Notes: generated by a model not told the origin, from the sequence alone. A DNA stretch of 63,407 nucleotides, filler included, from Reclinomonas americana ATCC 50394 (GCA_048213135.1; 16 parts of 16 records of this genome joined end to end with filler, not necessarily neighbours in it); one strand, 5' to 3'; shown: positions 1 to 62,241, numbered from the whole stretch's first letter. A program made the numbers and translations.

Positions 1-78
<78 letters not shown>
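1..78. repeat. (CA)n microsatellite
   Basis: Pure CA run at the window start. Similar CA/GT/GA runs occur at about 10927-10987, 13604-13655, 55744-55832, 55933-56020 and 63289-63407, mostly in introns or at contig ends. Confidence 0.98.
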
Positions 79-79
<1 letters not shown>

Positions 80-89
80 CACTCGGAGA

Positions 90-1261
90 ATGGCGACAAA
101 GGTGTGAATGTCTATGCGCACTTCGCGTGGTTGGTGTCTGCTTGTGCATGTGCGCTTGTTGTTTGCGTTGCTGTGTGTGTGCGTGCGTGTCTTCGAATGT
201 CGCTGCTGTGTGCGCGTCTCACCCGCGAGTGCTCGACGCAGATCATTCAGAGTCTTGCTGCAGTGCGGTCCGTCACCATCACTCCCGACGGCAAGCACAT
301 TGTGGGTGGATGTGAGGATGGTGCCGTTCGAATGTGGTCTCTGGCGAGTGGCGAAGAAGCGCGACAGCTGGTGGGACACACTGGATGGTTGCAATCTGTC
401 GCCGTCACCCCCGATGGCCAGCAGATAGTGAGTGGGTGTGGAGACTGTACCGTACATTTGTGGTCCCTGGCGAGTGAAGAGGAGGTTCGACGGTTAGAGG
501 GGCACACCGGCTCGGTGTTCTCTGTCGCCGTCACCCCCGATGGTCAGCACATCGTGAGTTGCGGTGGAGACAGCACCATCCGGGTGTGGTCGCTGGCGAG
601 TGGAAATGAGGTGCGACGGCTGGAGGGACACATTGGATGGGTGCTCTCTGTCGCCGTCACCCCCGATAGTCAGCATGTGGTGAGCGGGGGTGTAGACAAC
701 ACAGTGTGGGTATGGTTGCTGGCGAGTGGGGAGGAAGTGCGACTGTTGGAAGGACACACTGATATGGTGTGGTCTGTTGCCGTCACTCCCGATGGACAAC
801 ACATCGTGAGTGGCAGTCGAGACGGGACGATCCGTGTGTGGTCGCTGGCGAGTGGCGAGGAATTGCGACGCCTGGACGGACACACTGAATGGGTGTCGTC
901 CGTGGCGGTCTCTCCTGACAGTCAGCATATTGTGAGTGGGAGTGGGGACAGCACCATTCGGGTATGGTCTCTGGCAAGCGGGGAGGAAGTGCGACGGTTG
1001 GAAGGTCATGACGGATGGGTGTCGTCTGTGGCCGTCTCTCCCAATGGTCTGCGCATTGTGAGTGCCGGTGGTCACGACAATAGCGTGCGAGTGTGGTCCA
1101 CACCGCTTGGCCTTGCTCGCCTCGAGCTTGACGCCGCGCGCTCGGCCATGCACGCCGTGCAGGAGATGCAGGAGGAAGAAGTAGATTCACGATGCCTTCC
1201 CGAGCTGGTTCTGCGCTGCTTCATTGTCGAGGATGCCGAGGTCGTTCTTTTCCGGTGCTGA
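90..1261 (+). CDS. WD40-repeat protein, single 7-blade propeller with highly similar repeats
   Basis: Proposed exon 1 ATG GCG ACA AAG (90-101), GT..AG intron 102-241, exon 2 242-1261 in frame. Seven 42-aa repeats of consensus LEGHTxWVxSVAVTPDGQHIVSGxxDxTIRVWSLASGEEVRR. Confidence 0.9.
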
Positions 1262-7234: not shown

Positions 7235-7334
7235 NNNNNNNNNNNNNNNNNNNNNNNNNNNNNNNNNNNNNNNNNNNNTTAATTAATTAANNNNNNNNNN
7301 NNNNNNNNNNNNNNNNNNNNNNNNNNNNNNNNNN
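7235..7334. other. Artificial contig spacer N44-TTAATTAATTAA-N44 (first of 15)
   Basis: The same 100-bp linker with stops in all six frames also starts at 13660, 18270, 23332, 30227, 33934, 35040, 41572, 51990, 53961, 55833, 57335, 59323, 60974 and 62242. Confidence 0.99.
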
Positions 7335-13658: not shown

Positions 13659-14169
13659 CNNNNNNNNNNNNNNNNNNNNNNNNNNNNNNNNNNNNNNNNN
13701 NNNTTAATTAATTAANNNNNNNNNNNNNNNNNNNNNNNNNNNNNNNNNNNNNNNNNNNNAATCCCCCACCATGCAGTGCATTGGCCGAATTGCTGAGCAA
13801 AACCGCCAATTGAATCGTCGCCGCTTGCGATGTGGTCAAGTAGAACGCCCCTCCCACTGGCGCTGAGTTATACTGCAGGATGGCGCTGGTCACGTGCAGC
13901 ATGCATGCGTCCTCCACAGCTGTCGCTCCACCGGCCACTGCGCAGCGACCCAGATGTTATCACCCACTCTCTCTCGCACCCCCTTCCTGTCTTCGTCATC
14001 CCATCACGCAACACAACGCCGTGTTATTGCCCATGGTTCCTCCAGTCACAGTGACTGCGCCTTGCGTGTGCGCCGACAGACAACCACCGTTCTGCGCGTC
14101 GTCGTTGAGCACAATACGCGGAGACGACAAAGTTAACACACATACACACACACACACACACACACATAT

Positions 14170-18185: not shown

Positions 18186-18369
18186 TTATGACATGTATCC
18201 GCCAGCGAGTTAGTCAACGCGTTGTGTCGGCTCCTCCTTCTCCTCCTCCTCCTCCTCCTCCTCCTCTCTNNNNNNNNNNNNNNNNNNNNNNNNNNNNNNN
18301 NNNNNNNNNNNNNTTAATTAATTAANNNNNNNNNNNNNNNNNNNNNNNNNNNNNNNNNNNNNNNNNNNN

Positions 18370-21300
18370 GCGATCTTGCAGGCGCTCCGGCAGAATCTGG
18401 AACACTGTGTGCACGAGACAGGGAACGCAATCAACACGTTGTGGATCACGAAAAACGACGACATTCATGATCAGCTCACCGTGCATCACCTCCGACACGC
18501 CCTTCAGCTCCATTGGCTATCACACCAGAGATTGTCAGTCACGCCATCGGAAAGCAGGAGAGAGAGAGAAAGAGACAGCACACAATAGACGCACCCCAAT
18601 GTAGTTGGTCACCACCGGCATGTCCAGTTCGAGTCGCCCTTCAGAGTCCTGTGTGTGTACCGCGCCGAGTGTCAGTGAAAACAAACACAGAAAAAAACGT
18701 GTGCATTCGTCAGCGACTGACACGCAACTCGTGGCAATGTGCGCAGGAACTCGTCCGATACGTGGATCATGCCGCCCTTGGCCGTGCCGGACACACGCGC
18801 ACCTCGATTGATCGTTGTGCCTGGGTGTGTCATTATGTCAGTCAGCGTCATGAATTGAATGAGTGGGACACAGGGGTACAGCGCACCGTAGTAGTCCAGT
18901 CGACCCACGACCTCGTCCATCTGTGTGTCGTGCACAACATGCAGTGAGTGAGCACGACTTCACAAGCTGAAATGGTAATCGTAGACTCTGCTCACCTTGT
19001 GCGTGGCTTCGCCGAAGTGCAAGCCCATACGAATTCTGAGTCCACGGTAGATGACGCCATATCGGGCCGAGTCCACAATCGCTCCATAGTTGAGCTTGTA
19101 GAGAGCTTTCGGCCAGCGTGTCTGCGATAGAGAAAATGGTGGTGAGATGCGATGCGATCCTTGTTTCCCGACAACAGTCGTGTCTTGTCACCTCCAGCAG
19201 CGCCATTTGCGTCTCCAGTGCCCAGTGAATCGCATCGAATGGCTTGCTGAAGGACACCATGAAGGCGTCACCTGCCCCACAGCAACAGAGTCAGGCACAT
19301 TCCTCTTGTCTTGGTGTGTTGCACGTGTGTTTGTGATCCAAACCTTCAGTCTTGACCTCGAAGCCGTTGTGGTCGCGCAATCCGCGACGCATGATGCGGT
19401 GGTGCTGCTGAATGCAGCGCGACATCAGATCGGCGTCCGTCTCCCACAAAGCCGTCGAGCCTGACAAGACTGTGTCAGTTTCTCAACTCAGTTCAACCTG
19501 CACACCGCACCGACTCACCTTCAATATCCTGTTCGATGGAAGGATACACAAAGAAGACAAGATCACAAATCAGAAACACTTCACATCGCTTTCGTTAAAA
19601 ATGAACCCACCGTGAAGCCGACCACGATCTGCACATCCGTGGAGAAAGAAAATGAGCGACCTGCTGATGGCATAAGTGATGGATGGGCGACAGCACTGAC
19701 CGTTCCCTTTGGTGCGTTGTCCAGGGCGGCGACATAGAGATCCTCGGCGTCGACGCCGTACGCCTGGCTGTCGTTGTGCTCCTCGCGGTAGGTGCGGTCC
19801 TTGTAGATGAAGCGCGAAAGGTACATGAAAACAGCGGTGTTGGCGAGCACAAATGAGGCCACGACGACGGAGGTGAATATTTGAATCAGTAGCTGCATGC
19901 CGCGATTCGCCGGGATATTTCCATGAACTATGCACGCAATCACGATAAGCCTCAAGACACATCCTGCACTCCGTTGAAAGCACGCAGGACCCACCGCTCT
20001 TCACATGCTCGTCCTTGTAAAACACGCCCGTCAATAGGAGGCCCACCACAGAGCACACTCCATGGACACCAATGGCGTCGCACGGATCTGCATGTACATC
20101 GTTCAGTTTGTCGTCGACTAGCGAAAGGAATTGTGAGAGGGCAGTACCGTCAATGTGCAGACGCCTGGAAAGCCACTGCGATGCAACAGGGAAGAGGAAT
20201 GAGAAGGAGGAGTGCGCACGGAATGCCATTGCCATGCTTTCCAACTGACCACGCCCGAATGGTACGCGGCACCGCACACGCAGCCGATGATGAATGCCGC
20301 CCACGGTTCCACGAACGCGCATGCTGTGTGTCTACACTTCAGGCAACGACGAGGGTGTGTTAAAGACTACAGCTTGTCAGACGAACCAGATGTGACGCCA
20401 ACCAAGCCGGCCAGCGACCCGTTGAGCATCGAGTTGACATCGTAGATGCCCATACGCATGCTAGACGCATACATACACACATATACACATACGTGTGTAA
20501 GTGCAAGAAAGCAATCATGTTTTGGATGTTCACTTGCACACACCGAGCAATGAACAATGCGGCGAGCGTGGCACCCGAACCGGCAACAATGGTGTTGATT
20601 GCTGCGCGACCTGTGATGCGCGTAGATGGTTCAGCGAACCGCGTCCACAAGGCACTCACTATTTGACCTGCTGTCAAGTCGTACCTGCAGTGCGCATTTG
20701 ATCTGTACCGGGTGCGATGGTGACGGTGGAGATGGAGTTGAACCCCTGGGACACGTCGCGAGTTAGTTCCAAGAAGGACGACGCCAGCCGAATGGTCAGT
20801 GCGAACTTACCAGCCATCCGAACCACAAAATGAAACTGCCCAGCGCCTGCAACATTTGTTGCGTCTTCACCCACTGTGAGCGAACCATCTCCAGTGTGGT
20901 GTCGGCCTGCACATGCACGTGTGAGTATCGCTCGTGGACGGCTGCAGATACCAAAGACACAACGCATGCATATATGCACCGCCACGTTTTCCACAGAGTC
21001 GTCCTCGGTGGCTCCGCCCACCGAGGATCCGCGGTCGGAGGAATTGTTGTCGGGGGTGACCTTTGGCGTGCCGAACACCACACCCGGGCGCGGACCGATA
21101 ATCTGAAGCGTAGGCGTCAGCAGAAGAGACCGTTGAAGTGCACGCCCAAGAAGATCTCACAGTGCGCACCGCTGCACCGGCGATCGAAGCATATCCGCCA
21201 ACCATGTGCACAGCACAGTCGCCAGCGAAATCGAGCACATAGTAGCCACCGAGAATTCGCTTCTCCACCGGCGCAGAGCTGCACAGATCGCTGAAGTTAG

Positions 21301-22661
21301 GGCACCGCTGGCGCAATCACATAGACACACATTCAATGTGCGTACCCACTGAGCCAGCCATCTGCATTTTTTCAGTGGTCAGCAAAACGAATAAAAACTC
21401 GGACATCTGAGCGCACAAACACCGTCTTCCTCACCTTTGCTCCATGTCCAGTGCGCGATCACACCATAGACCCAGCTGCAAATGAACAGGTTCAGTATGA
21501 GGTAGCCCTGCAGCAGCGTCGGGTGAGATCACAGACAGGATCACAGTGCGCACGCAGCCACCAAGTGCGAAACTGAAAACTTGATGCGCTCCTGTGTGTT
21601 GTCGCATTGTCAGAGCTCGCATTACTATCAGTGAGGGAAAGGACAAGTGGGACGCAACGGCCACAGCTCCAGACATCACAGTGCCCTGCTCAGCGAGAGA
21701 GTGTCAGACGCGCGCGCGCGTGTCGTGTGCTGCGCGGATTTCTAAACTCCATAAGGACGCAACAGCTGCAGCGCAGAAACCAAAACCGTACATCCACACC
21801 AGCGCCTCGTTGGTGTTGTTGGGAATGGCAAACACCTGATTTATGTTGAAACCAAAAACACCATTCGACTCTGTGTGTGTGCGCGGTGAGAAATAAGGAG
21901 ATCAACTGCTTTCCAATTTGAGAAACAGTATGTGCGTGCGAGCAGAGGGCAAGGAGGAGAGTCTGACTGGCTGCGCGCGTAAGCCCACGTGTGTTTGTGT
22001 GCAAGTGTGTGCGTGTATGCATGCGCTCGAGGCGAGAAGAGTACTCTGAGTGCAAAACCGAAAGTGACCGTTGACGTACCCGAATAGGCAAGAGTGCTTC
22101 CCAGCGCCCACCAGGCCAGCGCCGCCGTTCCCGTGTCGGCATAGTTTTTGAGCACGATAAGTTGCACGCCCTTTTTCACACTTGCTGCCTGCGACGTGCA
22201 CGGGGGAAAGAGAGAGCGGGAGAGTGAGCGAAAGAGAGTGTCAGAACGAAACACGAAACACCCAACGAACACACACACACACCACAAGGCATGCAACGTG
22301 CGACAACTCACCTCAATGAGCAAAAAGCCAGCCTTCATGAAGAACACGAGCGCGGCACCGACGAACACCCACTGTCATAGAAAAAAAGCGTAAGACTGCC
22401 TTCCTTGTTTGGCGCGCACACAGCAAAAAGGACGTTTCTTCTTCGTTTCAGGCACACAAGCGAGGGAGAGAGATGTGGTGGTGTGCACCAGACACACACG
22501 CACGCGCACGCACAGATCGAGAAAGAGATAAAGGAAGACAGACACACGTTTGCAACAGGGCAAGAGTGATGTTCAGAGAGTTTTGGTGCAAGTCAGTCAT
22601 CGCACGCAACAACAGCATTGACGCTCAGCGTCAGCTCTGCGCTGGCGTTGGCACCGCTCAT
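18370..22661 (-). CDS. Ammonium transporter (Amt/Mep) - class III adenylyl cyclase fusion, paralog A; last residues lost in gap
   Basis: Hand-spliced: MSGANAS..NAV|WVFVGAALVFFMKAGFLLIE|..SGAVA|ERIKFS|..HWTWS..DFAGDCAVHMVGG..ILWFGWL|GFNSIST..NGSLAGLVGVTS..ID|DPCDAIGVHG..TM11. The same exon (19701-19927) runs on to DNAPKGT|IVVGFT|DIEG|STALWE..EVKTEG|DAFMV..GLRIRMGLHFG..LDYYG|TTINRGARV..ELKG..QILPERLQDR. Confidence 0.93.
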
Positions 22662-22959
22662 GAGAGGAGGCTAAATCCGTGAAACCGACGACAGGGGGCC
22701 GAGCGACAATCGCTCCGTGCGACACAAACAACAAAACGTTAACGACGTCGCGTATACGTACGAAGGACAAATAAATTAGATGCGGTCAACGACATGCATA
22801 GAGGGGGCAGAGCGAAGTGTGGTCGCACGCAGCACTCCCCCTCTCACATATCTGTCAAGCCCGCGTACCCCCAAAGAAAAGAGAAAAAATTCTGTATTTC
22901 TCACGCGCGTGGTGCGCAACTAACTTCCAAAACTTACACAAAAACACTTCTCGACGCGC

Positions 22960-23331
22960 TCAGAACCGCTCGCCTGTGCCGCCACCACCACCGAGACTCC
23001 AGAAGTCACCCTCGAGACCTACTTGCGTGAATATGTCACGCGCCTCCTGCACGGACCACTTGCGCCAGTCGCGGCGCGCATGCTGACCGTACCACACTCG
23101 AGAGAGCGCAATGAGCTGCGGCATGGGCACGACGGCACCGCGTGCGCTCTTGATGGCCCCTCCACCGCAGTGCCGCTGCACCCACGCGTCAATGTCGTCG
23201 GCGCAGCGAAATGGCACACAGCAGCTGCACGTGTGATGCACGTTGTTCCAGGCGCGTCGAGGCGGCACCGAAAAGTGCACCACCAGCTCTGGCTGGTCAC
23301 ACTGCATCGAGTCGCCGCCATCGACGCAAAT
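22960..23331 (-). CDS. Alkylmercury lyase (MerB)-like protein, C-terminal half; 5' end in gap
   Basis: Intronless open frame from the contig end: LVVHFSVPPRRAWNNVHHTC..F..ADDIDAWVQRH..G..VP..QL..LSRVWYGQH...W.KWSVQEARDIFTQVGLEGDFWSL..ERF-stop. This matches, from memory, the C-terminal pattern of bacterial MerB-family proteins. Confidence 0.75.
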   Translation of the reverse strand: MCVDGGDSMQCDQPELVVHFSVPPRRAWNNVHHTCSCCVPFRCADDIDAWVQRHCGGGAIKSARGAVVPMPQLIALSRVWYGQHARRDWRKWSVQEARDIFTQVGLEGDFWSLGGGGGTGERF

Positions 23332-23431
23332 NNNNNNNNNNNNNNNNNNNNNNNNNNNNNNNNNNNNNNNNNNNNTTAATTAATTAANNNNNNNNNNNNN
23401 NNNNNNNNNNNNNNNNNNNNNNNNNNNNNNN

Positions 23432-26400
23432 GCGATCTTGCAGGCGCTCCGGCAGAATCTGGAACACTGTGTGCACGAGACAGGAAACGCAATCAGCACG
23501 TTGTGGATCACGAAAGATGACATGCATGATCAGCTCACCGTGCATCACCTCCGACACGCCCTTCAGCTCCATCGGCTATCACACCAGAGATTGTAAGTCA
23601 CGCCATCGAAACGCAAGCGAGGGCGAGTAAGAGACAGCACACATCAGACGCACCCCAATGTAGTTGGTCACCACCGGCATATCCAGCTCGAGTCGCCCTT
23701 CAGAGTCCTGTGTGTGTACCGCGCCGAGTGTCAGCAAAAACAAACAACAAGGAGTGTACGTTCGTCCGCGAATGGAACGCAACTCGTGGCAAAGTGCGCA
23801 GGAACTCGTCCGATACGTGGATCATGCCGCCCTTGGCCGTGCCGGACACACGCGCACCTCGATTGATCGTCGTGCCTGTGCGTGTCATCATGCCAGTAAG
23901 CGTCATGAATTGAATGAGAGTGGGACACAGGGGCACAGCGCACCGTAGTAGTCCAGTCGACCCACGACCTCGTCCATCTGTGTGTCGTGCACAACATGCA
24001 GTGAGTGAGCACGACTTTCACAAGCTGATACGGTAATCGTAGATTGTGCTCACCTTGTGCGTGGCTTCGCCATAGTGCAAGCCCATACGAATTCTGAGTC
24101 CACGGTAGATGACGCCAAATCGTGGCGAGTCCACAATCGCGCCATAGTTGAGTCGGTAGAGAGCTTTTGGCCAGCGTGTCTGCGATAGAGAAAATGGTGG
24201 TGAGGTGCGATGCAATCCTTGTTTTCCCCACAAGTGTGGTGTCTGTTACCTCCAGCAGTGCCATTTGCGTCTCCAGCGCCCAGTGAATTGCATCGAATGG
24301 CTTGGTGAAGGACACCATGAAAGCGTCACCTGCCCCACAGCAACAGAGTTAGGCACAGTTCTCTTGTCTCGGTGTGCTGAACGTGTGAACACGATCCACA
24401 CCTTCAGTCTTGACCTCGAAGCCGTTGTGGTCGCGCAATCCGCGACGCATGATGCGGTGGTGCTGCTGAATGCAGCGCGACATCAGATCGGCGTCCGTCT
24501 CCCACAAAGCCGTCGAGCCTGACAAGACTGTGTCAGTTTCTCAACTCAGTTCAACCTGCACACCGCACCGACTCACCTTCAATATCCTGCACGATGGAAG
24601 GATACACAAAGTGGACAAGATCACTATCAGCAACACATCACACAGTCAACAGAATCAGCAATGTAATCACCGTGAAGGCCACCACAATCTGCACATCCGT
24701 GGAGAAAGAAAATGAGCGACCTGCTGATGGAATAGGTGATGGATGGGCGACAGCACTGACCGTTCCCTTTGGTGCGTTGTCCAGGGCGGCGACATAGAGA
24801 TCCTCGGCGTCGACGCCGTACGCCTGGCTGTCGTTGTGCTCCTCGCGGTAGGTGCGGTCCTTGTAAACGAAGCGCGAAATGTACATGAAAGCTGCGGTGT
24901 TGGCCAACACCCACACTGCCACGGTAAGGCTGCCAACAAGCTGCATGGCCAGCTGCATCCCACGATTCGGCGGGATGAAGCCGAACACTGCACAGTCACT
25001 CTGTGAGCGATACAGAAACGGCGCGCGGAGCGCGTTTTCCTGGCGAGTACAGCACACACCGTTGAAGACATGCTCGTCCTTGTAGAGTACACCAGCAAGG
25101 AGGAGACCGACAATCGAGCACATGCCGTGCACACCGATGGCATCGCATGGGTCTGCAGCAGAATGAGAATCGTAGAACAACAGACACATCGCGGCAGTGG
25201 TGACCAACCATCAATGTGTAGCTTCTTTGCCAGACGCTATACCAATGAAGTGTGTTTGTCAGCAGCAAAAAATGAGAAGCTACACAGGTGCGGTAAACTC
25301 ACCACTCCAATGTGGTAGCACACTCCACTGACGACGCCAATGACGAATGCCGCCCACGGCTCGACAAATGCGCAGCCTGTGTGCCGTGAGACACAAAGTT
25401 GGAGACAGAATTAAACGTCTGTCGCTCTCACCTGAAGTGACGCCGACGAGGCCCGCGAGTGAGCCGTTGATCATCGAGTTGACATCGTAGATGCCCATTT
25501 TCCAGCTGCGTGTGACCACCAACGTGAGTACACACATCGCCTTCCCGATTCTCAGAAGATTCACACGTACCGAGCCACCAGCAAGGCGGAGAGTGTGGCT
25601 CCAGATCCCGCAATAATGGAATTCACCGCACACCGCCCTGCAGCACGCATTCAGCAGAACGCACAATCACTACTACAAGTGCGTGCAGAGTGAATACGCA
25701 CCTGCTGTGCGCATCTGCTCAATGCCTGGAGAGATAGTGACCGTGGAGCACGCGTTAAAACCCTGTTCGTCCCACGCGTACGCCGCAAATCAGCAACCAC
25801 GAATGCAGCACAGTACAGATGGTGAAAATGGCTGATGACGCACCAGCCAGCCAAACCACAGAATGAAGCTTCCGAGTGCTTGCAGCATTTGCTGCGTCTT
25901 GACCCACTGCGAGCGGACCATCTCGAGCGTGTTGTCGGCCTGCTCTGAGTTGAGCATAAAGCAAGAATCGCGGGAAGGAAGGTCTCTTGCGCACCGCCAC
26001 ATTTTCCACTTCATCGTCCTCCGTCATGCCGCCCATCGAGGAGCCACGATCGGACGAGTTGTTGTCGGGGGTGACCTTGGTCTCGAACACGACACCCGGC
26101 CGAGGCCCGAGAATCTGCGTCGGCGCCGTCGTGTCAACAACAAGTGTGGCCATCGGCGCTGACCGCATTATGCGAGCACTCACCGCTGCTCCAGCAATCG
26201 AGGCGTACCCACCGACCATGTGCACGGCGCAATCACCCGCAAAGTCAAGGATAAAGTAGCCGTAGAACGGACGCTTCTCAATCGGCGCGGTTCTGCAGTG
26301 CAAGCGGCGGGTGAGCGGACACGTACTTTGTGTGTGCCGAGCATACACTTCGCTGCTGTGCGACAGACCCACTCATCCAGCCATCTGCATCGCGTGTTTA

Positions 26401-27413
26401 TGAGAAAAGAAATCCATGCAACTAACGCCGAATTCGAAACCACGCACCTTTGCTCCACGTCCAGTGGGCAACCGTGCCGTAGATCCAGCTGCAGACGAAC
26501 AGGTTGAGCATCAAGTAACCCTGTGCGAGTGGGTGAGTACGGATCCAAACGGCCACCACCGCACACATTCATCATGGCCGACGAAACGGAGAGTTTGACA
26601 CGCTCCTGAAGATGAAATCCGAACCCGAACCACACGCAGACTGCGGTAAGATCCCTCTCTCGACGAAAACGGCAAACGAAACGGAAACGCAACAGCCATG
26701 GCGCCCGACATGACAGTTCCCTGTGGAGGAAGAAGGCAAAACGCTGAGTTTACATGGCTGGACTGGCGGAAGCTCTTGGACACGCAACTGCACAAGCACA
26801 AAAGCCAAAGCCGAATACCCACACTAAACCATCGGTGGTCGAACTGGGTACACCAAACACTTGTGCCGAATCAAAGCCGAATACACCATTCGATGCTGTC
26901 ATTGTACATCAAGCGAACCAGAAAGGAGTGCGGTAGGGGAGAGCAGAAAGGAGAGAGAGGAGATCGGTCACACAGGTGCCAAATCTGGAGAGACACATCG
27001 ACCGTTGACTCACGTGCGTTTTGGAAAGTGTAGCCCAGCGCCCACCAGGCCAACATCGCCGTTCCCGTATCCGCGTAGTTCTTGAGCACGATAAGCTGTA
27101 CACCCTTGCGCACACTGGCCGCCTGCGTTTTGTGTGTAATGTGACGCAAGTTTGTCACAAAATGCGACGACTCTCCGAACACAGAGAGAGAGCACACACA
27201 CACACACACACAGACTCTCCCTGCTGGTGTCTCACGACTCACCTCAATGAGCAAGAAGCCAGCTTTCATGAAGAACACCAGAGTGCCACCGACAAAGATC
27301 CACTACGGCACGCAGTGCGTGTGAGAAAAACGACAAAATACCGCTCACAGATGGGTGTGCATGAGTGGGTCGCATGCATGTGCGTATCAAGTGGGCGAAG
27401 AAGAGTGTGCACG

Positions 27414-27447
<34 letters not shown>

Positions 27448-27724
27448 CAGCACTATGTGTTGTATCATCTCAGGTCAGCACCACGCTTGGAAAACAGCAA
27501 GCGAAAGGAGATCTCAGTGCGTCTCTGTTGCAGTGCGCGTGGAAGAGTGCGCGCGTGTGTGTACGAGGGAGGGAGGGAGGGAGAGAGAGAGAGAACGATA
27601 ATCGTGTTCGCGAATGAGCCGTTAGTGAGTGGTGAGACGCAACGACAGCGTTGATACCAAACGGCAGATCTGAGTATGGATCGGGCGCCGCTGCCGCAGG
27701 CATCGATGCCGACGCGTCGTCCAT
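23432..27724 (-). CDS. Ammonium transporter - class III adenylyl cyclase fusion, paralog B; last residues lost in gap
   Basis: Same exon structure as paralog A: MDDASASMP..GINAV|WIFVGGTLVFFMKAGFLLIE..SGAMA|ERVKLS..DFAGDCAVH..ILWFGWL|GFNACST..DPCDAIGVHG. Junction exon 24761-24987, then FT|DIEG..EVKTEG|DAFMV..GLRIRMGLHYG..DYYG..NRGARV. Confidence 0.93.
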
Positions 27725-28673
27725 TGTGACGAGTGTGCAAGTGGAAACACTGCGTGTGAGTGCGTGAAAAAGCTGTTGTCTCTTCTCGCACAACCCACGA
27801 ACAAAATAAACACTCAAAATATTCGCTGCGCAAAAATGGAATCCAGTACGTATCGCGAGAACGGCCCGCCGCGTTGTTTCTTCGAGGCGTTGAGAACACG
27901 TTCACCGCGGGCATGGGTGTACGAGGAGCTGGGACGCCGGCAGCGTGCGTGTGCTTGCGGCGGTGGAACGGTGTGGTCAGTCGAAAGAAACAAGTGCATC
28001 GATTCGTTCAGGATTGCAATTCGCGGAGCTCCCTCATTTCCTCGCGCCGTTCATCATATCGCAGTTTGTCGATGGGTTTGTCCGCCCTTCAGCGCTGCGC
28101 TGGCGCGCCGCTCATGCTCAGCGGTCGGCGGGTACCGACAAATCAAGCAGAACTCTGCGGCCGGATTCAAGAAACTCTCTGCTGCTGTGTGCTTAGCCCC
28201 GAAGAGAGTGCATTGCATGATACATGTACATCTACTGCAGCGGCCACCAAAGTCAAGTTGGCTGCTGTTCACCATCTGCACTCGCTCCACCCCACCACTG
28301 CTCGTCGCCAGTGTGTGTGTCCCGACCGCCAGGGCCGGTATCTAACGACCATTCCCCTGCTCTCCTTCTTTCGCCGCTGCAACGATACTCTCTCCCTGGA
28401 AACACCAGCAACACGGCGATTCTCTTGCCTAACAGTCGAGGCTACTGTTGCTTCCCTTCTCTCGCCAGCCCTCACCCAACCCACATCTATCGATCTTCCC
28501 TTCAACATTCTCGGCATCGCGATCGACACAGACCGCGCAGTGCGGTCGCGATCACGCATTCCACAACGCTTGACACGGGCCCACAACGCAAGAGGGCACG
28601 CACGCACTATCGTCACAGCAGTACCCGTGCGCAACAAAAGACGAAACTCTAACCGCCGTCTTCGAACATCTCT

Positions 28674-29681
28674 TTACGCATCTGTTCCACCGGCACCACC
28701 GCCTGCCGCCCACCGCCGCTCACGCTCCTTCTGCCGCACCTCGCGCTCCAACTCGAACTGCCGATGATCAGCACGCACGAGAAACTCTTGCCGCTCGATG
28801 AACCTTTCGCGGTATCACATGAGAGAAACAAACAAACACACGCAGCAGCACAGCAGCTTGCAGCCGCAATCCACAAACCCGTCCTTTCGTGCACCGGCCA
28901 GCTCGTCCTCCAGACCCTGGTCGTTCTTGTACGAGTCCCAGTCGCGCTTGGATCGATCCAGCACCGACTCCTTCTTCGGCTTCTTGATGGCGTTGATCAT
29001 GTCGTCGATGGAGTTGCCGGCGGGACTGTAGGAGAGACAGAGAGCGTGGTGAGAGGAGCGGCCAAAAGAAGAGAGAACGCTCGGGCGACCAAACGTGCCG
29101 TTTCGTGCCGGCCAGTCGCGCTGTCGGAGGCGAGGCGACTGGCGGAGGTGGAACAGGCGCGGGCGGAGGCGGAGGTGCAGCAGCAGCAGTAGCAGGTGGC
29201 TTGCGCACACGACTGCTGGCCTGCATCTCGGCGAAGAAATCATCGACCGACTTGCCGGACGCACCACCACTCTTCTGTGCGCCGCCGGAGATGGTCGCGG
29301 CAATCGCAGTCGCCGCGACCGCAGCAGCGCCACGTGTCACACGCGCCTCTCGCGGTTTCACTCCACCCTCAATCGCCGCCCAGTCCTCATCATCATCACC
29401 AGAGTCCGATGTCTCCGCCTCGTCCTCCTCCTCATCCTCCTCATCTCTCCCGACTCGCTTGCCCTTCTTGCCGCTCGCAGATCGCGGAGGCTTTGCTTTC
29501 TTTGTCGCCGCTGCAGATGCGCTCGTCGACTTGCTCTTGGCCGCTTTCTCTGCACCCACACACGCACACATGCACACACACAGTGTGAGTTGCGCCTGTT
29601 GTTGCCTGTGCGGCATCACCCCGTCAAACCTGGCACGTAGTCCTCATCGGCGGAGCTATCGCTGCTTTCGTCGTCGCTCAT
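28674..29681 (-). CDS. SWC5: BCNT-domain protein (CFDP1/Swc5 family)
   Basis: N-terminal MSDDESSDSSADEDYVP. C-terminal BCNT motif KKESVLDRSKRDWDSYKNDQGLEDEL..KDG|FIERQEFLVRADHRQFELERE. Confidence 0.88.
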
Positions 29682-29807
29682 GTTTGAGTGTTTGAATTGT
29701 TGACGCAGGACATCCTTGCCTTCTTGCTGCTTCCTACGACCATTCATTCACTAACGAGCAAGTCTATCAACGACTACGAGGACGGCAACGCCACGCTTGC
29801 AAATTCT

Positions 29808-30101
29808 CTAAAACACTGGCTGCGCCGCTCGTACTTCCGGCTCGACCTCGGCAAAGGCCTTCTTGTAGGGCGAGTCGGCCCCGGGTGGTGTCACCAGAAT
29901 CACCGAGGTTGGTCGCTTGGTGCCTGCGGCGGCGCCCAGCTCGGCCTTTGACGGTGTGTAAATGTAGGGAATGCCGGCGTCTTCGCACAGCACCGCCAAG
30001 TGCGAGATCACGTCAATCGGGCTAATGTCGCCCGCAATGATGCACACTCTGTGCACGACGAACGAGAGAGAGAGAGAGAGAGAGAGAAGAGTGTAAGAGA
30101 G

Positions 30102-30148
<47 letters not shown>

Positions 30149-30421
30149 CGAGAAGAAGACGTAACGTACGTACGTACGTACGGACGACGAACGACGTACG
30201 ACGTACGTACGACGTACGTACGACGTNNNNNNNNNNNNNNNNNNNNNNNNNNNNNNNNNNNNNNNNNNNNTTAATTAATTAANNNNNNNNNNNNNNNNNN
30301 NNNNNNNNNNNNNNNNNNNNNNNNNNAAAGGGACGAACTTACGAAAAGGAAGTACCGACTTCGCGTGAGGCCGACGAAGACGTGCATGCACACGACTACA
30401 CAGACACACGACGACGAAGAA

Positions 30422-42417: not shown

Positions 42418-44199
42418 ATGGTGAAGCGGAAGAAGGCGTCACAGAAGAAGCGGACCGACTTGCGCGTCAAGGACGTGCTGAGCCGGTTGCCGGAGCATGA
42501 GGCGCGAGAGGCGGCACTGACGGCTGCACGCACGCTGGCCGACTCGGCGCTCTTCACCGTGTCGAAGAAGCCACCAAAGGCGAAGCATAGTGTGGAAGAC
42601 TTGATCGAGGAGGACGAGGATGGGCGACCGATGATCAATGGTCAGTGTGTGTGTTCAGATTGCACAAGATTGTGTGCTGACTGACTGTCTGTCTCGGTGT
42701 GGTGACAGGCAAGGTGGTGCGGTCGGCGGCCAAGGCACGCCGGTTGGCCATGGCCGAGAGAATACGTGCGCAGCGCGAGGCGCGACTGAATTCACACTCG
42801 GATCAGTCGATTCCTGCCGTGCCGCCGGTCAGGGACACATTGGCGGCGGTGAAGAAGCACCGTGAGCAGGTGCAGGAGAAGGCGCGTCTGCTGCGGAAAC
42901 GACGACGTGGTGAGAAGGAGGAGGAAGAGGAGGAGGATGGCGACGAAAGAGTGGATGACTCGAGCGAGGGGGAGAAGCGCTACGTGATTGAGTCGTCGTC
43001 GGACGACGATGATTACTACGGGCGGGAGCCACAGTGGAAGAAGATGCGGAGGGAGTTGGTGAAGAAGATCCCGCGCCGGCTGACACAACGGCCTGTGACG
43101 GAGGATGTGTGGGAGGCGAGCAAGAATGCTGCTCCGGAGCTGGGATACGGTCTGAAGCCGCAGCCGGATGTGGATCTCTCGTTGGTCGCCATTCCTGCGT
43201 CGATTGTGCCGCCCAAGAAGCGGCCACACAGCATGGAGACGTACAAGCCGAGCTATCGGAAAGCCACACCAGTGCCGGATCCAGCGCAGTCGTACAATCC
43301 GGTGCCGATCGACCACAAGAAGCTTCTCGACCATGTGTACAAGCGTGAGCTCGGACGCCAACGCAAGGAGAGGAAATACGAAAAGATTCTGGCACGGGTG
43401 CGTCTCTCTCACTTGTTGGGTCGCACGCTGAAGGTGGTGGGTTGCTGAGAAACAATCGTGCGTCTGGTGTGCACAGCCCAAGGGATTCGAGGATGTCGAG
43501 GCGAACGATGCCGTGGCCGGAATGCTCATCGATCAGGCCTACGAAGAGCAGCCGGAGCTGTACGAGGAGCTGGTTCGCGCCCCCCTCCACACACACACAC
43601 AAAACTGCCTCGTTATTCCCCCCGCTCATTGTGCATTTCTTGTTTGCGTGGCAGTCGGCTCCGACGGGTGCCGAGCCGCTGGTTCTCAAGCCGACCGAGA
43701 AGAAGACCAAGGCGCAGCGCAATCGCGAACAACGACACAAGGAACGCTTGCTGGAGGAGCAGGCGCGCAGAGAGAAGAAGCGAGCCGAATCTACCATGCC
43801 CGCCGTCAAGACGATTGCGAGGGAGGTCGACCAGGAACTCAGCAAGGCGCAGCAGATTCTCGAGAAACGACGCCGTCGTCGCGAGGCATTCGAACGAGTA
43901 CGCATCAAGATCCTCGGCAGTGGGCGATACGTGCGCGACGACCCCGCATACTTGCTGCCAGAGCAGCTGGCAGCCTCACTCCGCCAGACCCCCGTCAGTG
44001 TGCGTGACGAAAAAGTGATGCAGAGGGAGGGAAAAAACTATTGTGTTGACAAATTGTTTTTTTCATGCAGACGGTTGGCGCGACGCTGCTCAAGGAGCGC
44101 TACAGCAGCTTCATGGAGCGCAATATGGTGGCACCGAGGGGCACCAAGAGGCAGAAGAAGAAGAAGCACCGTTTCCGCTACTCGGAAAGACCCGAATGA
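42418..44199 (+). CDS. NOP53: Ribosome biogenesis protein NOP53/GLTSCR2
   Basis: ALFTV motif; AQSYNP..DHKKLL; KKTKAQRNR; LPEQLAASLRQTP|..LLKERYSSFMERNM. Confidence 0.85.
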
Positions 44200-44395
44200 A
44201 TGCATGTCGACGCGTCGACATCACCAATGCGCAAAATTGAACGCAGTCAAAAACACGACATTTGACCCCCACCTTTTTTCCCTTTACACGCGTGTGGAGC
44301 CGTTGTTGACCACTGCACCAAAAAAGTTACGCTTTCTGCATGGCATCTCGCGCGACAAACCTTTCGCACTCACACTCACACAGCTCCCAAAAAGA

Positions 44396-45844
44396 ATGTC
44401 TCGCTTCTTTACTCTTCTCGCCCTCGTGTCTGTGGTGGCCGTTTTGGTCGCCACGAGCAGCGCTGAGCCGCTTCTGCGCGGTGGTGCAGTGGCTGTCACG
44501 GAGGTGCGTGTGTGTGTTTGAGCACACACACACACACACACACACACACAATATTCCGAACTCACATGCATGTGTGAGATGCGCAGCTCGTCGACAAGGT
44601 GGATCCGGTCACTGAGCTGCAGGCGCTGCGCGACTTTTACAACAGCACCAATGGCCCGAGCTGGACCAGCAACCAAGGGTGTGTGTGATTTTGTGGCATT
44701 TCTGATGATGATATGTGTGTGCATTGCATCACTCATTCTCGCTTTGTGTTTGTGATTAGATGGACTGACCCCGATGCCACCGACGTGTGCGACTGGTTCG
44801 GCGTGTCGTGCCGCGACGGAACGCACGTCACCAACCTCATCTTGCCCAACAACAACCTGCGCGTTGCGTCCATGAAGAATCCAAGACGAGAAATGGGTGT
44901 CATGCTCACTGTTGTTCTTGTTGTTGTTGTTGTTGTTGCAGGGTTCCATCGTGAGCTCGTTTGGTGCGCTGGCCAACCTGGAGGTGAGTCGTGTACAATG
45001 CGGCGCTCCGCTTTTTGCGCTGCTGGCTGACGTTTCTGTTTTCCGTGCGCAGTACCTCGATCTGTCGCAGTGCGTCAGGACTCCCGTTATTGTTTTGCTT
45101 CTTTGAATGTACTCATTCGATTGTCGCTCAGGAACCAGTACCTTGCCGGCAACCTCCCGTCCGTCAACTTCACCAAGCTGCTGCACGTCGACCTGAGCGT
45201 GAGTGATTTGTTCTGTGTTTGCTGCGCATTTTTCCGGTGCATTTCACTCACGCACACGCGGCTCCCTCGTTCGCAACAGATGGGCATGAGCTCGTTCTAC
45301 CGCGGTTGGTGGCCGCTGCCATTTTTTATTGCATCTCGCCGGTTTGTCTGACATGTTCCCCTTCTGCCGCAGGCTCGCTCACTGGCCCTGTGCCCGCTGG
45401 CCTGCTGCCGAGCACCCTGCTCTTCTTCGTGCGTGTGTTCTCCGCCTCCTCTGTCACTCGTGTGCGCTGCTGACACTTCGCAAAACAGGATCTGAGCAGC
45501 CAGCAGTTCTCCCGCATGCCGAATGCGGCCCTGGACCTGCCGAACGTGACCCGCTTCACCGTGCACAACAACGGAATGGTGCGTGATGCTTGCTTTCTTT
45601 GCTTGTGTTTCGTTCATACATACTGAATTCTTGCGGTATGCAGGGCGGCTACTTCCCGTCATGGATGTCAACGACGTCGCTGACCTACTTCGACATTGGC
45701 AACAACCAGTTTGTGGGCTTCGGCACCCCGACCATGGCTGCGCCGCCGAAGAGCGCCACCTGCATCACCTCGTACAACAACTTCTTCTGCCCCTTCACTC
45801 CCGACTGGGTCAGCTCGCAGTGCCAGGGCACGTGCCACAACTAA
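44396..45844 (+). CDS. Secreted plant-type LRR protein with N-terminal cap
   Basis: Signal peptide; ELQALRDFYNSTNGPSW..W..VCDWFGVSC; LILPNNNLR|GSI; YLDLSQNQYLAGNLP; Cys-containing C-terminal cap; no TM helix. Confidence 0.88.
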
Positions 45845-55832: not shown

Positions 55833-55932
55833 NNNNNNNNNNNNNNNNNNNNNNNNNNNNNNNNNNNNNNNNNNNNTTAATTAATTAANNNNNNNNNNNN
55901 NNNNNNNNNNNNNNNNNNNNNNNNNNNNNNNN

Positions 55933-61073: not shown

Positions 61074-62241
61074 CGATCCGTAGTAGTTCGCATCACACTG
61101 GCACGTTCCATTGACGTTGCACGAACCGTGGCCGGAGCACGCAGTAGCCGCCACGCAGTTGACGCTGCACGATGGTCCGTAGTAGTCCGCGTCGCACTGA
61201 CACGATCCGTCCGTCTGGCACGAACCGTGACCGGAGCACGTGGTGGCCGCCACGCAGTTGGCGTTGCACGATGATCCGTAGTAATTCGCAGCACATTGAC
61301 ACGTTCCATCCATCTGGCACGAACCGTGGCCGGAGCACGTCGTCGCGGCATTGCATGGTGACCCGCCGACACTGCTGCCGCACGACGCACCACTGAACCC
61401 TGTGTCACACTGGCACGTTCCATCCGTCTGGCATGAACCGTGGCCGGAGCACGTAGTAGCCGCCACGCAGTTGACGTTGCACGATGATCCGTAGTAATTC
61501 GCAGCACATTGACACGTTCCATCTGTCTGGCACGAACCGTGGCCGGAGCACGTGGTGGCCGCCACGCAGTTGACGTTGCACGATGATCCGTAGTAATTCG
61601 CAGCACATTGACACGACCCATTCGTCTGACAGGTACCGTGACCAGAGCACGTGGTGGAAGCCACGCAGTTGACGCTGCACGATGATCCGTAGTAATTCGC
61701 ATCACACTGGCACGTTCCATTGACGCTGCATGAACCATGGCCAGAGCAATTCGCCGACGGACTGCAGTTGCAGTCGCTATTGACATAGTCGCCAGCGCAC
61801 TGACACGTTCCATTCGTCTGGCACGAACCGTGACCGGAGCACGTGGTGGCCGCCACGCAGTTGACGTTGCACGATGATCCGTAATAGTCCATATCGCACT
61901 GGCACGTTCCATCCGTCTTGCACGAACCTTGACCGCTGCATGTGCTTGCCGCCACGCAGTTGACATTGCACGAAGACCCGTAATAATCTGCAGCGCATTG
62001 GCAGGTTCCGTCGGCCTTGCATGAGCCATGGCCGGAACACGTGCTGCTCGCTACACAGCTGACGTTGCACGACGATCCATAATAGTCCGCATCGCACTGG
62101 CATGTACCGTCCGCCTTACACGAACCGTGGCCGGAGCACGAAGTGGCCGCTGTACAGTTGACGTTGCACGACGATCCGTAATAGTCCGTATCACACTGGC
62201 ACGTTCCGCCTGTCTGGCATGTACCGTGACCGGAGCACGTC
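61074..62241 (-). CDS. Tandem EGF-like repeat protein fragment (33-aa/99-bp units, ~12 copies)
   Basis: The whole contig is open in one frame: repeats of CVAATTCSGHGSCQTDGTCQCxANYYGSSCNVN. Both ends lie in gaps. Confidence 0.92.

What the first reader, a model, noticed from the sequence alone, without database searches (positions are those of the whole stretch)
18370..27724. Tandem Amt-adenylyl cyclase fusion genes: candidate one-component ammonium-to-cAMP receptor in a eukaryote
Seen: both genes splice into a complete 11-TM Amt followed by a class III nucleotidyl cyclase. The fusion does not rest on a guessed splice. A single 227-nt exon (19701-19927 in A, 24761-24987 in B) reads without a stop from Amt TM11 through a ~35-aa linker (YKDRTYREEHNDSQAYGVDAEDLYVAALDN) into APKGT, the start of the cyclase fold. 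The cyclase keeps both metal-binding Asp (FTD, EGD), the ATP-selecting Lys and Asp (VKTE, LDYYG) and the transition-state Asn/Arg (NRGAR). Established: prokaryotic sensor Amts are fused to a His kinase (Kuenenia Amt5) or a diguanylate cyclase (Shewanella Amt1). In eukaryotes, yeast Mep2 and Dictyostelium AmtA/AmtC reach cAMP/PKA signalling indirectly. Inference: these proteins couple ammonium binding directly to cAMP synthesis. I know of no characterised eukaryotic example, but I cannot search to confirm novelty.
Basis: partly seen in the sequence, partly recalled or inferred. Interest (0 to 1): 0.93.

Follow-up and report, generated by a model that had tools for sequence, protein, structure and literature searches.

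The report
Eukaryotic ammonium transporter fused to adenylyl cyclase
Two intron-rich eukaryotic genes each encode an ammonium-transporter membrane domain joined directly to a catalytically complete cAMP-making enzyme, so they may turn ammonium into a cAMP signal in one protein, a link not yet described in eukaryotes.

Summary
The core observation holds. On the minus strand, two paralogous genes (A 18370-22661, B 23432-27724) each splice through 27 GT..AG introns into one open frame of 672 and 681 residues. The product is a complete Amt domain with every AmtB pore residue I mapped. A linker of about 35 residues follows, then a class III cyclase with all six canonical catalytic residues in the ATP-type set.

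Two unrelated database fragments carry the same join in a single ORF. Both halves are under purifying selection, with omega about 0.1.

Caveats:
- The window is 16 contigs joined by N spacers, so "tandem" crosses an unsequenced gap.
- Both genes are cut at their 3' ends at the same homologous base, so the C-terminal tails are unknown.
- No RNA data could be listed.

Ammonium-regulated cAMP synthesis is inference. The sensor-Amt N1/N2 residues are mostly present, but the published signature is not met strictly.

Eight literature searches found no description of this architecture. Earlier unchecked notes of this scan report cyanobacterial Amt-PAS-cyclase fusions. I therefore rate it a new variant (eukaryotic, direct fusion) of the known sensor-Amt kind.

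The parts
18370..22661 (-). Gene A, 28 exons, 672 codons, 3' end cut by the contig edge. Exons: 22661-22611, 22371-22312, 22188-22080, 21870-21764, 21685-21659, 21591-21574, 21507-21435, 21361-21346, 21278-21170, 21102-20980, 20906-20811, 20745-20685, 20610-20544, 20460-20387, 20323-20250, 20175-20148, 20087-19995, 19927-19701, 19628-19611, 19528-19519, 19460-19344, 19271-19192, 19121-18996, 18920-18887, 18820-18729, 18648-18595, 18516-18480, 18404-18370.
   Evidence: Coordinate-based exon chaining with A/B comparison. The spliced frame is open and all introns are GT..AG.
19809..22661 (-). Gene A Amt module, TM1 to TM11 (exons 1-17 and the first half of exon 18).
   Evidence: blastp against E. 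coli AmtB, E=3.8e-35. Pore residues map to A residues W146, D170, H178, W262, F265, S269, T329 and H373. Single-exon PF00909 matches are collinear along the profile.
19701..19927 (-). Gene A junction exon (227 nt): TM11, a linker of about 35 residues (19808-19716) and the start of the cyclase domain (19715-19701).
   Evidence: Open frame of 75 codons. 12 invariant columns are shared with B, P0004 and P0006.
18370..19715 (-). Gene A class III cyclase domain (end of exon 18 to exon 28). It is complete up to its last strand at the contig edge.
   Evidence: blastp of the spliced product against L004 (PF00211, 58 bits) gives E=2e-24. Against L005 (CHASE2 + PF00211, 59.8 bits) it gives E=2e-21. Exon 21 is best matched in the PDB by T. 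brucei GRESAG4.3 and 4.1, E=4.8e-4. Catalytic residues: D478, D521, K517, D597, N604, R608.
23432..27724 (-). Gene B, 28 exons, 681 codons, 3' end cut by the contig edge. Exons: 27724-27644, 27302-27243, 27122-27014, 26895-26789, 26720-26694, 26605-26588, 26520-26448, 26384-26369, 26292-26184, 26114-25995, 25939-25844, 25762-25702, 25637-25571, 25505-25432, 25376-25303, 25236-25209, 25152-25060, 24987-24761, 24688-24671, 24586-24577, 24518-24402, 24329-24250, 24179-24054, 23977-23944, 23875-23784, 23707-23654, 23575-23539, 23466-23432.
   Evidence: blastp against AmtB gives E=1.4e-26. Against the two cyclase references it gives E=1e-24 and 5e-22.
24761..24987 (-). Gene B junction exon. In B the two flanking introns happen to be in frame, so 24671-25156 reads as one 162-codon ORF from TM10 into the first cyclase strand.
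   Evidence: Pfam PF00909 scores 32 bits (cut-off 23.2) on residues 2-102 of that ORF, at profile positions 303-380 of 399.
18370..19810 (-). Recently homogenised tract of gene A (partner in B: 23432 to about 24870). It covers the linker, the cyclase exons and their introns.
   Evidence: dS is 1.06 in the TM11 half of the junction exon, 0.04 in the linker half and 0.13 in the cyclase exons. Introns 18-25 are 75-100% identical, against 44-70% for introns 1-17. blastn gives 87% identity over 1741 columns.
18270..18369 (.). Spacer or assembly gap that cuts the 3' end of gene A.
23332..23431 (.). Spacer or assembly gap that cuts the 3' end of gene B and separates it from the contig holding gene A.

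Best explanation
Each gene encodes a single polypeptide. An 11-helix Amt/Mep-type ammonium channel module carries, right after helix 11, a cytoplasmic tail of about 35 residues. That tail runs without any HAMP, PAS or coiled-coil element into a class III cyclase homology domain with a full ATP-type catalytic set.

The most likely working is an ammonium receptor or transceptor of the sensor-Amt kind:
1. The Amt module forms the usual trimer in a membrane.
2. It takes up NH4+ at the outer Trp/Ser site, passes it past the Phe gate and the twin histidines, and probably also holds it at an internal site like N1/N2 of Sd-Amt1.
3. The resulting shift of the cytoplasmic face and of the C-terminal tail changes how two cyclase domains pair.
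4. Class III domains act as head-to-tail dimers, and here each chain holds all six residues, so pairing sets cAMP synthesis. This gives a trimer-to-dimer symmetry break like the one proposed for Sd-Amt1.

Shown: the fused architecture, the conserved residues, the conservation of the junction in other organisms, and purifying selection. Inferred: trimer and dimer states, cytoplasmic location of the cyclase, ATP as substrate, and any regulation by ammonium.
For: - Architecture: one open exon joins both domains in A and in B. Full spliced frames are open over 28 exons.
- Amt competence: 8 of 9 mapped AmtB pore residues align directly. The ninth (F107) aligns when an alignment gap is removed by hand.
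- Sensor-type features named in PMC11152129 (passages): counterparts of Phe-25, Glu-29, Lys-44, Asn-45, Asp-48, Thr-104 and Ser-107 are present in A as F33, E37, K51, N52, D55, T111 and S114. The signature's D[F/T] position is T56, and the matching residues are present in B.
- Cyclase competence: both metal Asp, the Lys/Asp pair and the Asn/Arg pair are present, in end-to-end alignments to two PF00211-verified domains.
- The linker aligns with, and is as long as, the cytoplasmic C-terminal region of AmtB. 12 of its columns are invariant across A, B and two fragments that are only 33-40% identical to A.
- Selection: omega is 0.10 on the Amt exons (dS 1.58) and 0.12 on the cyclase exons.
- Precedent: Ks-Amt5 and Sd-Amt1 show that an Amt with a fused C-terminal transducer works as an ammonium receptor despite the trimer/dimer mismatch (PMC11152129, passages).
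Against: - There are no transcript data (one search listed no run), so an Amt-only isoform is not excluded.
- The published N1/N2 signature is not met as written. Gln is replaced by Lys, and the Glu-to-Asn spacing is 14, not 15. The same signature also occurs in plant AMT1 transporters, so it does not prove a sensor role (PMC11152129).
- All pore residues are intact, so the module may simply transport.
- The linker is short and has no known transducer element, and its likeness to the AmtB tail is weak.
- The C-terminal tails are missing and could hold further regulatory domains.
- The spliced proteins could not be given to Pfam, to structure prediction or to complex prediction, so the fold and oligomer statements are not computed.
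Confidence: 0.55

Rival explanations
1. This is a working ammonium transporter that merely carries a cyclase. The cyclase would be controlled by something else (cytosolic pH, bicarbonate, Ca2+, phosphorylation, or a domain in the missing C-terminal tail). Alternatively it responds only indirectly to the ammonium that was transported. The fusion would serve co-localisation rather than allosteric coupling.
For: All AmtB pore residues are kept. The strict sensor signature is not met. The C-terminal tails are unknown because both contigs end there. No HAMP- or PAS-like coupling element lies between the domains (searches gave no other family).
Against: The linker is highly conserved across distant members, with 12 invariant columns. 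This argues for a specific role rather than a passive tether. Six of the seven signature positions of the internal ammonium site are kept.
Confidence: 0.25
2. Control runs the other way. The cyclase domain (through ATP or cAMP occupancy, or its dimer state) gates the Amt pore from the cytoplasmic side, taking the place that the PII protein GlnK has in bacteria.
For: The cyclase starts right after the tail that aligns with the AmtB C-terminal region. From recalled knowledge, that region is where Amt, Mep2 and AMT1 activity is regulated. Eukaryotes mostly lack GlnK partners for Amt (recalled).
Against: A full catalytic residue set under purifying selection (omega 0.12) points to real catalysis, not a mere plug. 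No precedent is known to me.
Confidence: 0.1
3. The fusion is an artefact. Either two separate genes or a pseudogene were read through, or the contigs are chimeric.
For: No RNA evidence is available. The assembly is fragmented and both contigs end at the same base. The 3' halves are near-identical, which can confuse assemblers.
Against: - The join lies inside one exon with no stop, in two contigs whose Amt halves differ at dS 1.58.
- The cyclase halves also differ (15.5 synonymous and 6.5 non-synonymous differences), so they are not one collapsed copy.
- Two independent assemblies hold the same join.
- Neither 28-exon frame contains a stop.
Confidence: 0.05

Closest known systems
Sd-Amt1 of Shewanella denitrificans (Amt-HAMP-GGDEF ammonium receptor; PMC11152129, passages read)
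   Same: An Amt module with canonical pore residues is fused at its C terminus to a nucleotide cyclase that needs to dimerise. Most residues of the internal N1/N2 ammonium site are shared, including the Phe and Glu that open the side path and the Lys-Asn pair.
   Different: It is bacterial. Its output is a diguanylate cyclase making c-di-GMP, and a helical HAMP linker of about 60 residues joins the domains. Here the organism is a eukaryote, the output is a class III cyclase, and the linker is about 35 residues with no HAMP. Lys replaces Gln and the signature spacing is one residue shorter.
Ks-Amt5 of 'Candidatus Kuenenia stuttgartiensis' (Amt-histidine kinase; PMC5764959 searched for terms only; described in PMC11152129 passages)
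   Same: An Amt domain reused as an ammonium sensor with a fused C-terminal transducer.
   Different: The output is a histidine kinase in a two-component system; it is bacterial; it is reported not to complete transport.
Cyanobacterial Amt-PASx3-class III adenylate cyclase proteins
   Same: The same input and output domains, implying the same ammonium-to-cAMP idea. They are also uncharacterised.
   Different: They are prokaryotic, about 1200 residues long, and have a HAMP-like linker and three PAS domains between the Amt and the cyclase. The genes here are eukaryotic and intron-rich, and join the two domains directly.
Trypanosoma brucei receptor-type adenylate cyclases GRESAG4.1 and 4.3 (PDB 1fx2, 1fx4)
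   Same: They are the best solved-structure match of the largest cyclase exon (E=4.8e-4 and 1.4e-3, 39 of 39 residues aligned). They are membrane receptor-cyclase fusions of a protist.
   Different: From recall, their sensor is an extracellular periplasmic-binding-protein-like domain with a single membrane helix, not an Amt.
Rhodopsin-guanylyl cyclases of Blastocladiomycota (PDB 6ao9, 6aoa, 6sir, 5oyh seen) and the K+-channel-like adenylyl cyclases of Paramecium and Plasmodium (recalled)
   Same: These are eukaryotic one-component proteins in which a polytopic membrane sensor is fused directly to a class III cyclase.
   Different: The input is light or membrane potential, not ammonium, and the membrane domain has a different fold. 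The match of the cyclase exon is only weak (E=0.22 to 1).
Transceptors Mep2 (yeast, Candida) and AMT1 (plants)
   Same: They are eukaryotic Amt proteins thought to signal as well as transport. Their cytoplasmic C-terminal region is the regulatory switch (recalled; Mep2 as sensor is stated in PMC10433425, passage).
   Different: They have no fused enzyme, and their signalling to cAMP/PKA or other pathways is indirect and unresolved.

Membership tests
Amt/Mep/Rh ammonium transporters (Pfam PF00909) | Sequence match to the family over the whole domain | tested here: met
   Spliced A against E. coli AmtB gives E=3.8e-35 with 31% identity over 405 columns; B gives E=1.4e-26. The contiguous ORF P0003 scores 32 bits against a cut-off of 23.2. 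Single exons hit PF00909 at collinear profile positions 27-63, 114-138, 146-176, 236-269, 267-296 and 303-333. The spliced protein itself could not be given to the Pfam tool.
Amt/Mep/Rh ammonium transporters (Pfam PF00909) | Pore residues: outer Trp/Ser site, Phe gate, twin His, conserved Asp | tested here: met
   The equivalents of W148, D160, H168, W212, F215, S219, T273 and H318 are identical in A and B. F107 falls in a MAFFT gap but matches a Phe when the stretch before the AER motif is aligned without the gap (my reading).
Amt/Mep/Rh ammonium transporters (Pfam PF00909) | Eleven transmembrane helices, C terminus inside | tested here: inconclusive
   The alignment to AmtB runs from its first helix to its C-terminal tail. 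A crude hydropathy scan found only part of the helices above threshold. No topology predictor was available.
Class III nucleotidyl cyclases (Pfam PF00211) | Sequence match to the cyclase homology domain | tested here: met
   The spliced product aligns to L004 (PF00211, 58 bits) at E=2e-24 and to L005 (PF00211, 59.8 bits) at E=2e-21 across 212 columns. On single exons Pfam gave only 14.1 bits, against a cut-off of 21.9, once and nothing. Membership therefore rests on the pairwise alignments and on the PDB hit.
Class III nucleotidyl cyclases (Pfam PF00211) | Six canonical catalytic residues (two metal Asp, substrate Lys and Asp, transition-state Asn and Arg); Lys/Asp marks ATP | tested here: met
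   A has D478, D521, K517, D597, N604 and R608; B has the same residues at +9, in register with the references. The assignment of roles to these positions is recalled knowledge of the family, not a tool result.
Class III nucleotidyl cyclases (Pfam PF00211) | Active as a head-to-tail dimer | not testable with these tools
   Spliced sequences are not accepted by structure prediction or complex prediction.
Sensor Amt / ammonium receptors (AmR; Ks-Amt5, Sd-Amt1) | [quoted passage not shown] | tested here: met
Sensor Amt / ammonium receptors (AmR; Ks-Amt5, Sd-Amt1) | N1/N2 signature Q-x6-E-x15-N-x2-D-[FT]-x54-60-T-x2-[ST] (PMC11152129) | tested here: not met
   The pattern finds nothing in A, in B, or in E. 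coli AmtB as control. A has K30, E37, N52, D55, T56, T111 and S114: six of seven positions are kept, Lys replaces Gln, and 14 rather than 15 residues lie between Glu and Asn. The second half, N-x2-D-T-x54-T-x2-S, is met.
Sensor Amt / ammonium receptors (AmR; Ks-Amt5, Sd-Amt1) | Binds NH4+ without completing transport, and modulates the transducer | not testable with these tools
   This needs electrophysiology and enzyme assays.

The most novel reading that the evidence does not exclude
These proteins are the first eukaryotic one-component ammonium receptors. In this reading the Amt's own conserved cytoplasmic tail, the part that regulates Mep2, AMT1 and AmtB, acts as the lever that directly sets the pairing of an adenylyl cyclase. 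External ammonium would then be written into cAMP with no G protein, kinase or PII partner. Such a protein could be the kind of metabolism-independent ammonium chemoreceptor that has been inferred but not identified in flagellated algae (PMC11621555, passage). It would form a conserved protist family so far seen only as gene fragments.
Probability: 0.4. Interest if true: 0.85.

Novelty: new variant of a known kind. Interest (0 to 1): 0.7.

Why it matters
How eukaryotic cells sense ammonium is unresolved. Yeast Mep2 and plant AMT1 are called transceptors, but their link to cAMP/PKA or other pathways is indirect. For Chlamydomonas, a metabolism-independent ammonium chemoreceptor has been inferred but not identified (PMC11621555, passage).

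A protein in which the Amt domain is wired straight to a catalytically complete adenylyl cyclase gives a direct enzymatic read-out of the Amt conformational state. The transceptor idea could then be tested in a simple heterologous assay.

It would also extend the bacterial sensor-Amt class to eukaryotes and to a third output, cAMP, beside histidine kinase and c-di-GMP. The coupling would be unusually short and free of HAMP. That makes it attractive for structural work on the trimer-to-dimer symmetry break, and possibly as an ammonium-controlled cAMP tool.

Tried and rejected
- RNA evidence: the look-up of sequencing runs for 18370-22800 listed no RNA holder. None was listed, which is not evidence either way; read laying was therefore not used.
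- Own genome: none is held.
- Full-length relatives: three homologous-protein searches among longer proteins gave nothing. The queries were the junction exon, an alignment of four junctions, and the 162-residue ORF of B.
- Exhaustive HMMER gave only 3 hits. One of them (P0005) is a low-complexity repeat protein matching an intron-derived stretch, and I ignored it.
- Metagenome loci from the junction alignment: 283 pattern matches, none confirmed.
- A degenerate DNA pattern for the junction motif found 2 metagenome loci and 1 prokaryotic genome locus. tblastn with both spliced proteins and AmtB found a cyclase match in two of them (L004, L005) and an Amt match in none of the three. L004 is a free-standing cyclase start and L005 a CHASE2-cyclase; both served only as references. 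L003 has no family.
- ESM Atlas: only plain Amt clusters, scores 0.75 and 0.93.
- PDB searches with three short exons: two gave nothing and one gave only weak hits.
- Plasmid tblastn for a cyclase reference: the 136 records with a match (135 Ralstonia, 1 Citrobacter) turned out, for the one I opened, to be a response-regulator gene, that is a chance hit. A second query found nothing.
- The control-genome search for PF00211 gave no loci.
- Rfam found no RNA family in the window.
- I considered that the alkylmercury-lyase-like ORF (22963-23331) or the acidic ORF end at 18213-18269 might be the missing C-terminal exons of B and A. The two are unrelated to each other while the gene ends are about 93% alike, so this stays open.
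- I could not see figures or supplements of PMC11152129. Its Fig. 7B lists the domain organisations of fused Amts and may already include cyclase fusions.

Full report
**What the window is.** The 63,407 bases are not one continuous sequence. They are 16 contigs of 1.0 to 10.3 kb, each pair separated by 44 N, TTAATTAATTAA and 44 N. Gene A lies on contig 18370-23331 and gene B on contig 23432-30226, both on the minus strand. One other spacer (55833-55932) is flanked on both sides by the same (AC)n run. This suggests the order reflects a scaffold. Even so, the adjacency of A and B crosses an unsequenced gap, and an ORF with an alkylmercury-lyase (MerB) C-terminal match lies between them at 22963-23331 (PF03243, 30.1 bits). 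Both gene-bearing contigs begin with the same 20 bases. Both genes are therefore cut at the same homologous point of their 3' ends. No Rfam family was found in the window. Other ORFs carry eukaryote-typical families: WD40, ERp29 and Nop53.

**Checking the observation.** Window 19701-19925 and 24761-24985, minus strand, each translate to 75 residues without a stop. Canonical AG and GT sites flank them. In gene B the introns on both sides of this exon happen to be in frame and free of stops. As a result, 24671-25156 is one 162-codon ORF from helix 10 of the Amt domain into the first strand of the cyclase. Pfam places PF00909 on its residues 2-102 at 32 bits, against a cut-off of 23.2.

**Gene models.** I built the models from coordinates, using A/B protein conservation and GT..AG sites. 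Each gene has 28 exons (10 to 227 nt, median about 73) and 27 introns. All introns are GT..AG, 58-239 nt in A and 55-341 nt in B. The spliced frames have no stop: 672 codons for A and 681 for B, both open at the contig edge. The proteins share 563 identical residues.

**The Amt half.** Spliced A aligns to E. coli AmtB at E=3.8e-35 (31% identity over 405 columns) and B at E=1.4e-26. In a MAFFT alignment, the residues equivalent to AmtB W148, D160, H168, W212, F215, S219, T273 and H318 are identical in both proteins. F107 falls in an alignment gap but matches a Phe once that gap is removed. The module therefore keeps the outer recruitment site, the Phe gate and the twin histidines.

*Sensor signature.* The paper on Sd-Amt1 (PMC11152129, passages) proposes a signature for the internal N1/N2 ammonium site of sensor Amts. 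As written, that pattern is not met in A or B, nor in AmtB as control. Six of its seven positions are nevertheless present: A E37, N52, D55, T56, T111 and S114. Also present are the Phe four residues before the Glu and the Lys before the Asn, both of which the paper describes. The differences are a Lys in place of the Gln and one residue less between Glu and Asn. The paper itself notes that plant AMT1 transporters carry the signature. These residues therefore make a receptor role plausible but do not prove it.

**The linker.** About 35 residues separate helix 11 from the cyclase. In the alignment they lie opposite the cytoplasmic C-terminal region of AmtB and have the same length; the similarity is weak. 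No other Pfam family is found there, so there is no HAMP, PAS or coiled-coil element. From recalled knowledge, this tail is the regulatory element of AmtB, Mep2 and AMT1.

**The cyclase half.** Single exons are too short for Pfam. One ORF gave PF00211 at 14.1 bits, and exact exons gave none. The largest cyclase exon finds the Trypanosoma brucei receptor-type adenylate cyclases GRESAG4.3 and 4.1 as its only PDB matches (E=4.8e-4 and 1.4e-3, 39 of 39 residues aligned). Another exon weakly matches rhodopsin-cyclase catalytic domains (E=0.22 to 1).

*Whole-domain test.* To test the whole domain I used two bacterial references found with a degenerate pattern for the junction motif. L004 is a cyclase start (PF00211, 58 bits). 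L005 is a CHASE2-cyclase (PF05226 at 117.7 bits and PF00211 at 59.8 bits). The spliced product aligns to L004 at E=2e-24 (35% over 156 columns, starting exactly at the APKG motif). It aligns to L005 at E=2e-21 over 212 columns, up to the last strand at the contig edge. These alignments cross ten exon joins and so also validate the splice model.

*Catalytic residues.* Both metal-binding Asp (A D478, D521), the Lys/Asp pair (K517, D597) and the Asn/Arg pair (N604, R608) are present once each. Reading these as the canonical six residues, and Lys/Asp as ATP-specifying, is recalled family knowledge. With all six on one chain, a homodimer would have two active sites.

**Is the fusion real and maintained?** Three lines of evidence say yes.
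- *Two separate contigs.* The Amt halves of A and B are old duplicates (dS 1.58, dN 0.16, omega 0.10 over 363 codons), and both contigs show the same join.
- *Independent assemblies.* An exhaustive HMMER search of 1.84 billion representative proteins with the 162-residue ORF gave 3 hits. Two are short predicted proteins from other assemblies: P0004 (159 aa) and P0006 (79 aa), each from contigs of about 0.9 kb. Each carries in one ORF the last Amt helix, the same linker and the first cyclase strand with the metal Asp. P0004 also gives a weak PF00909 match (16.8 bits). They are only 40% and 33% identical to A over the junction, yet 12 columns are invariant, including the whole APKG motif. The third hit is a repeat protein matching intron-derived residues.
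- *Selection on the cyclase.* The cyclase exons differ between A and B mainly at synonymous sites (15.5 synonymous against 6.5 non-synonymous differences, omega 0.12).

**A side result: recent homogenisation.** Divergence switches sharply in the middle of the junction exon. The helix-11 half has dS 1.06 and the linker half 0.04. The cyclase exons have dS 0.13, and introns 18-25 are 75-100% identical against 44-70% for introns 1-17. The linker-plus-cyclase part has therefore been homogenised recently, most simply by gene conversion. The boundary lies at the domain border.

**How it most likely works.** By analogy with Ks-Amt5 and Sd-Amt1 (PMC11152129, passages), I take the Amt module to be a membrane trimer that binds NH4+, and the fused cyclase to be the transducer. 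The tail that leaves helix 11 is short and conserved and leads straight into the cyclase. Ammonium-dependent movements of the cytoplasmic face would then alter the pairing of two of the three cyclase domains, and thereby cAMP synthesis. This is the same trimer-to-dimer symmetry break discussed for Sd-Amt1.

I put this at 0.55. The main rival (0.25) is a true transporter with a co-localised cyclase that is regulated otherwise or only indirectly. Less likely are reverse control of the pore by the cyclase domain (0.10) and an artefact (0.05). None of the functional steps is shown. No RNA run could be listed, and spliced sequences could not be given to Pfam, folding or complex tools.

**Comparison with what is known.** It works like a sensor Amt, but the published signature is not strictly met. 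It also differs in domain of life, in output (class III cyclase rather than histidine kinase or GGDEF) and in lacking a HAMP linker. It resembles eukaryotic membrane-sensor-cyclase fusions in logic, but not in sensor fold: rhodopsin-guanylyl cyclases (PDB entries seen), K+-channel-like cyclases of ciliates and Plasmodium (recalled), and trypanosomal receptor cyclases.

**Literature and novelty.** Eight full-text searches found no paper on an Amt fused to an adenylyl or guanylyl cyclase:
- 0 papers;
- 1 paper;
- 4 papers;
- 11 papers;
- 12 papers, 10 listed;
- 21 papers, 20 listed.

I read passages of PMC5322657, PMC9561859, PMC12710649, PMC11621555 and PMC10433425. In PMC5764959 none of six search terms occurred. 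I could not see Fig. 7B or the supplements of PMC11152129, which list the domain organisations of fused Amts. No InterPro-type architecture search was available.

Earlier notes of this scan (AI notes, unchecked here) describe cyanobacterial proteins with Amt, three PAS domains and a class III adenylate cyclase (e1-3137638, e1-3133192). The ammonium-to-cAMP fusion idea is therefore not unique to this window. The eukaryotic, direct-fusion form appears undescribed.

**Verdict.** I rate it a new variant of a known kind, with interest 0.7.

Noticed in passing
window 7235-7334, 13660-13759, 18270-18369, 23332-23431 and 11 further places: The window is 16 contigs joined by identical 100-base spacers (44 N, TTAATTAATTAA, 44 N). 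The spacer at 55833-55932 has the same (AC)n run on both sides, which suggests scaffold gaps at microsatellites.
   Followed up: partly
window 22963-23331 (-): An ORF open into the gap and ending in a stop at 22960-22962 matches the C-terminal half of the alkylmercury lyase family MerB (PF03243, 30.1 bits, cut-off 27). This is unusual in a eukaryotic genome. It lies between genes B and A, and could be a separate gene or, less likely, the missing 3' part of gene B.
   Followed up: partly
window 18213-18269 (-): The contig next to the cut 3' end of gene A ends, on the minus strand, in an ORF open into the gap. It reads as a run of Glu codons from a (GAG)n microsatellite, followed by a stop after 19 codons. 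It might be the C-terminal tail of gene A.
   Followed up: no
window 18370-19810 and 23432-24870: Divergence between the paralogues drops sharply inside the junction exon: dS is 1.06 before and 0.04 after, and the introns are also near-identical. This points to recent gene conversion of the linker and cyclase part only.
   Followed up: yes
window 61075-62240: A whole 1.2-kb contig is a tandem array of 11.7 copies of a 99-bp unit (72% matches). By my own reading of the consensus, the minus strand encodes Cys-rich 33-residue repeats of EGF-like appearance.
   Followed up: partly
window 2-1258 (+): A long open frame encodes a WD40 beta-propeller protein (PF00400, 240 bits, 6 stretches). Its 126-bp internal DNA repeats show in the self-comparison.
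   Followed up: no
window 42681-44518 (+): Nop53 (PF07767) matches are split over two overlapping ORFs in different frames (profile 78-227 and 277-384). This implies an intron or a frameshift.
   Followed up: no
P0004 and P0006 (database fragments): In P0004 the reading frame leaves the cyclase sequence right after the FTDVEG motif. That is the position of the intron after the 10-nt micro-exon in genes A and B, which hints at a conserved intron position. Neither fragment has the two introns that split this region in A and B.
   Followed up: no
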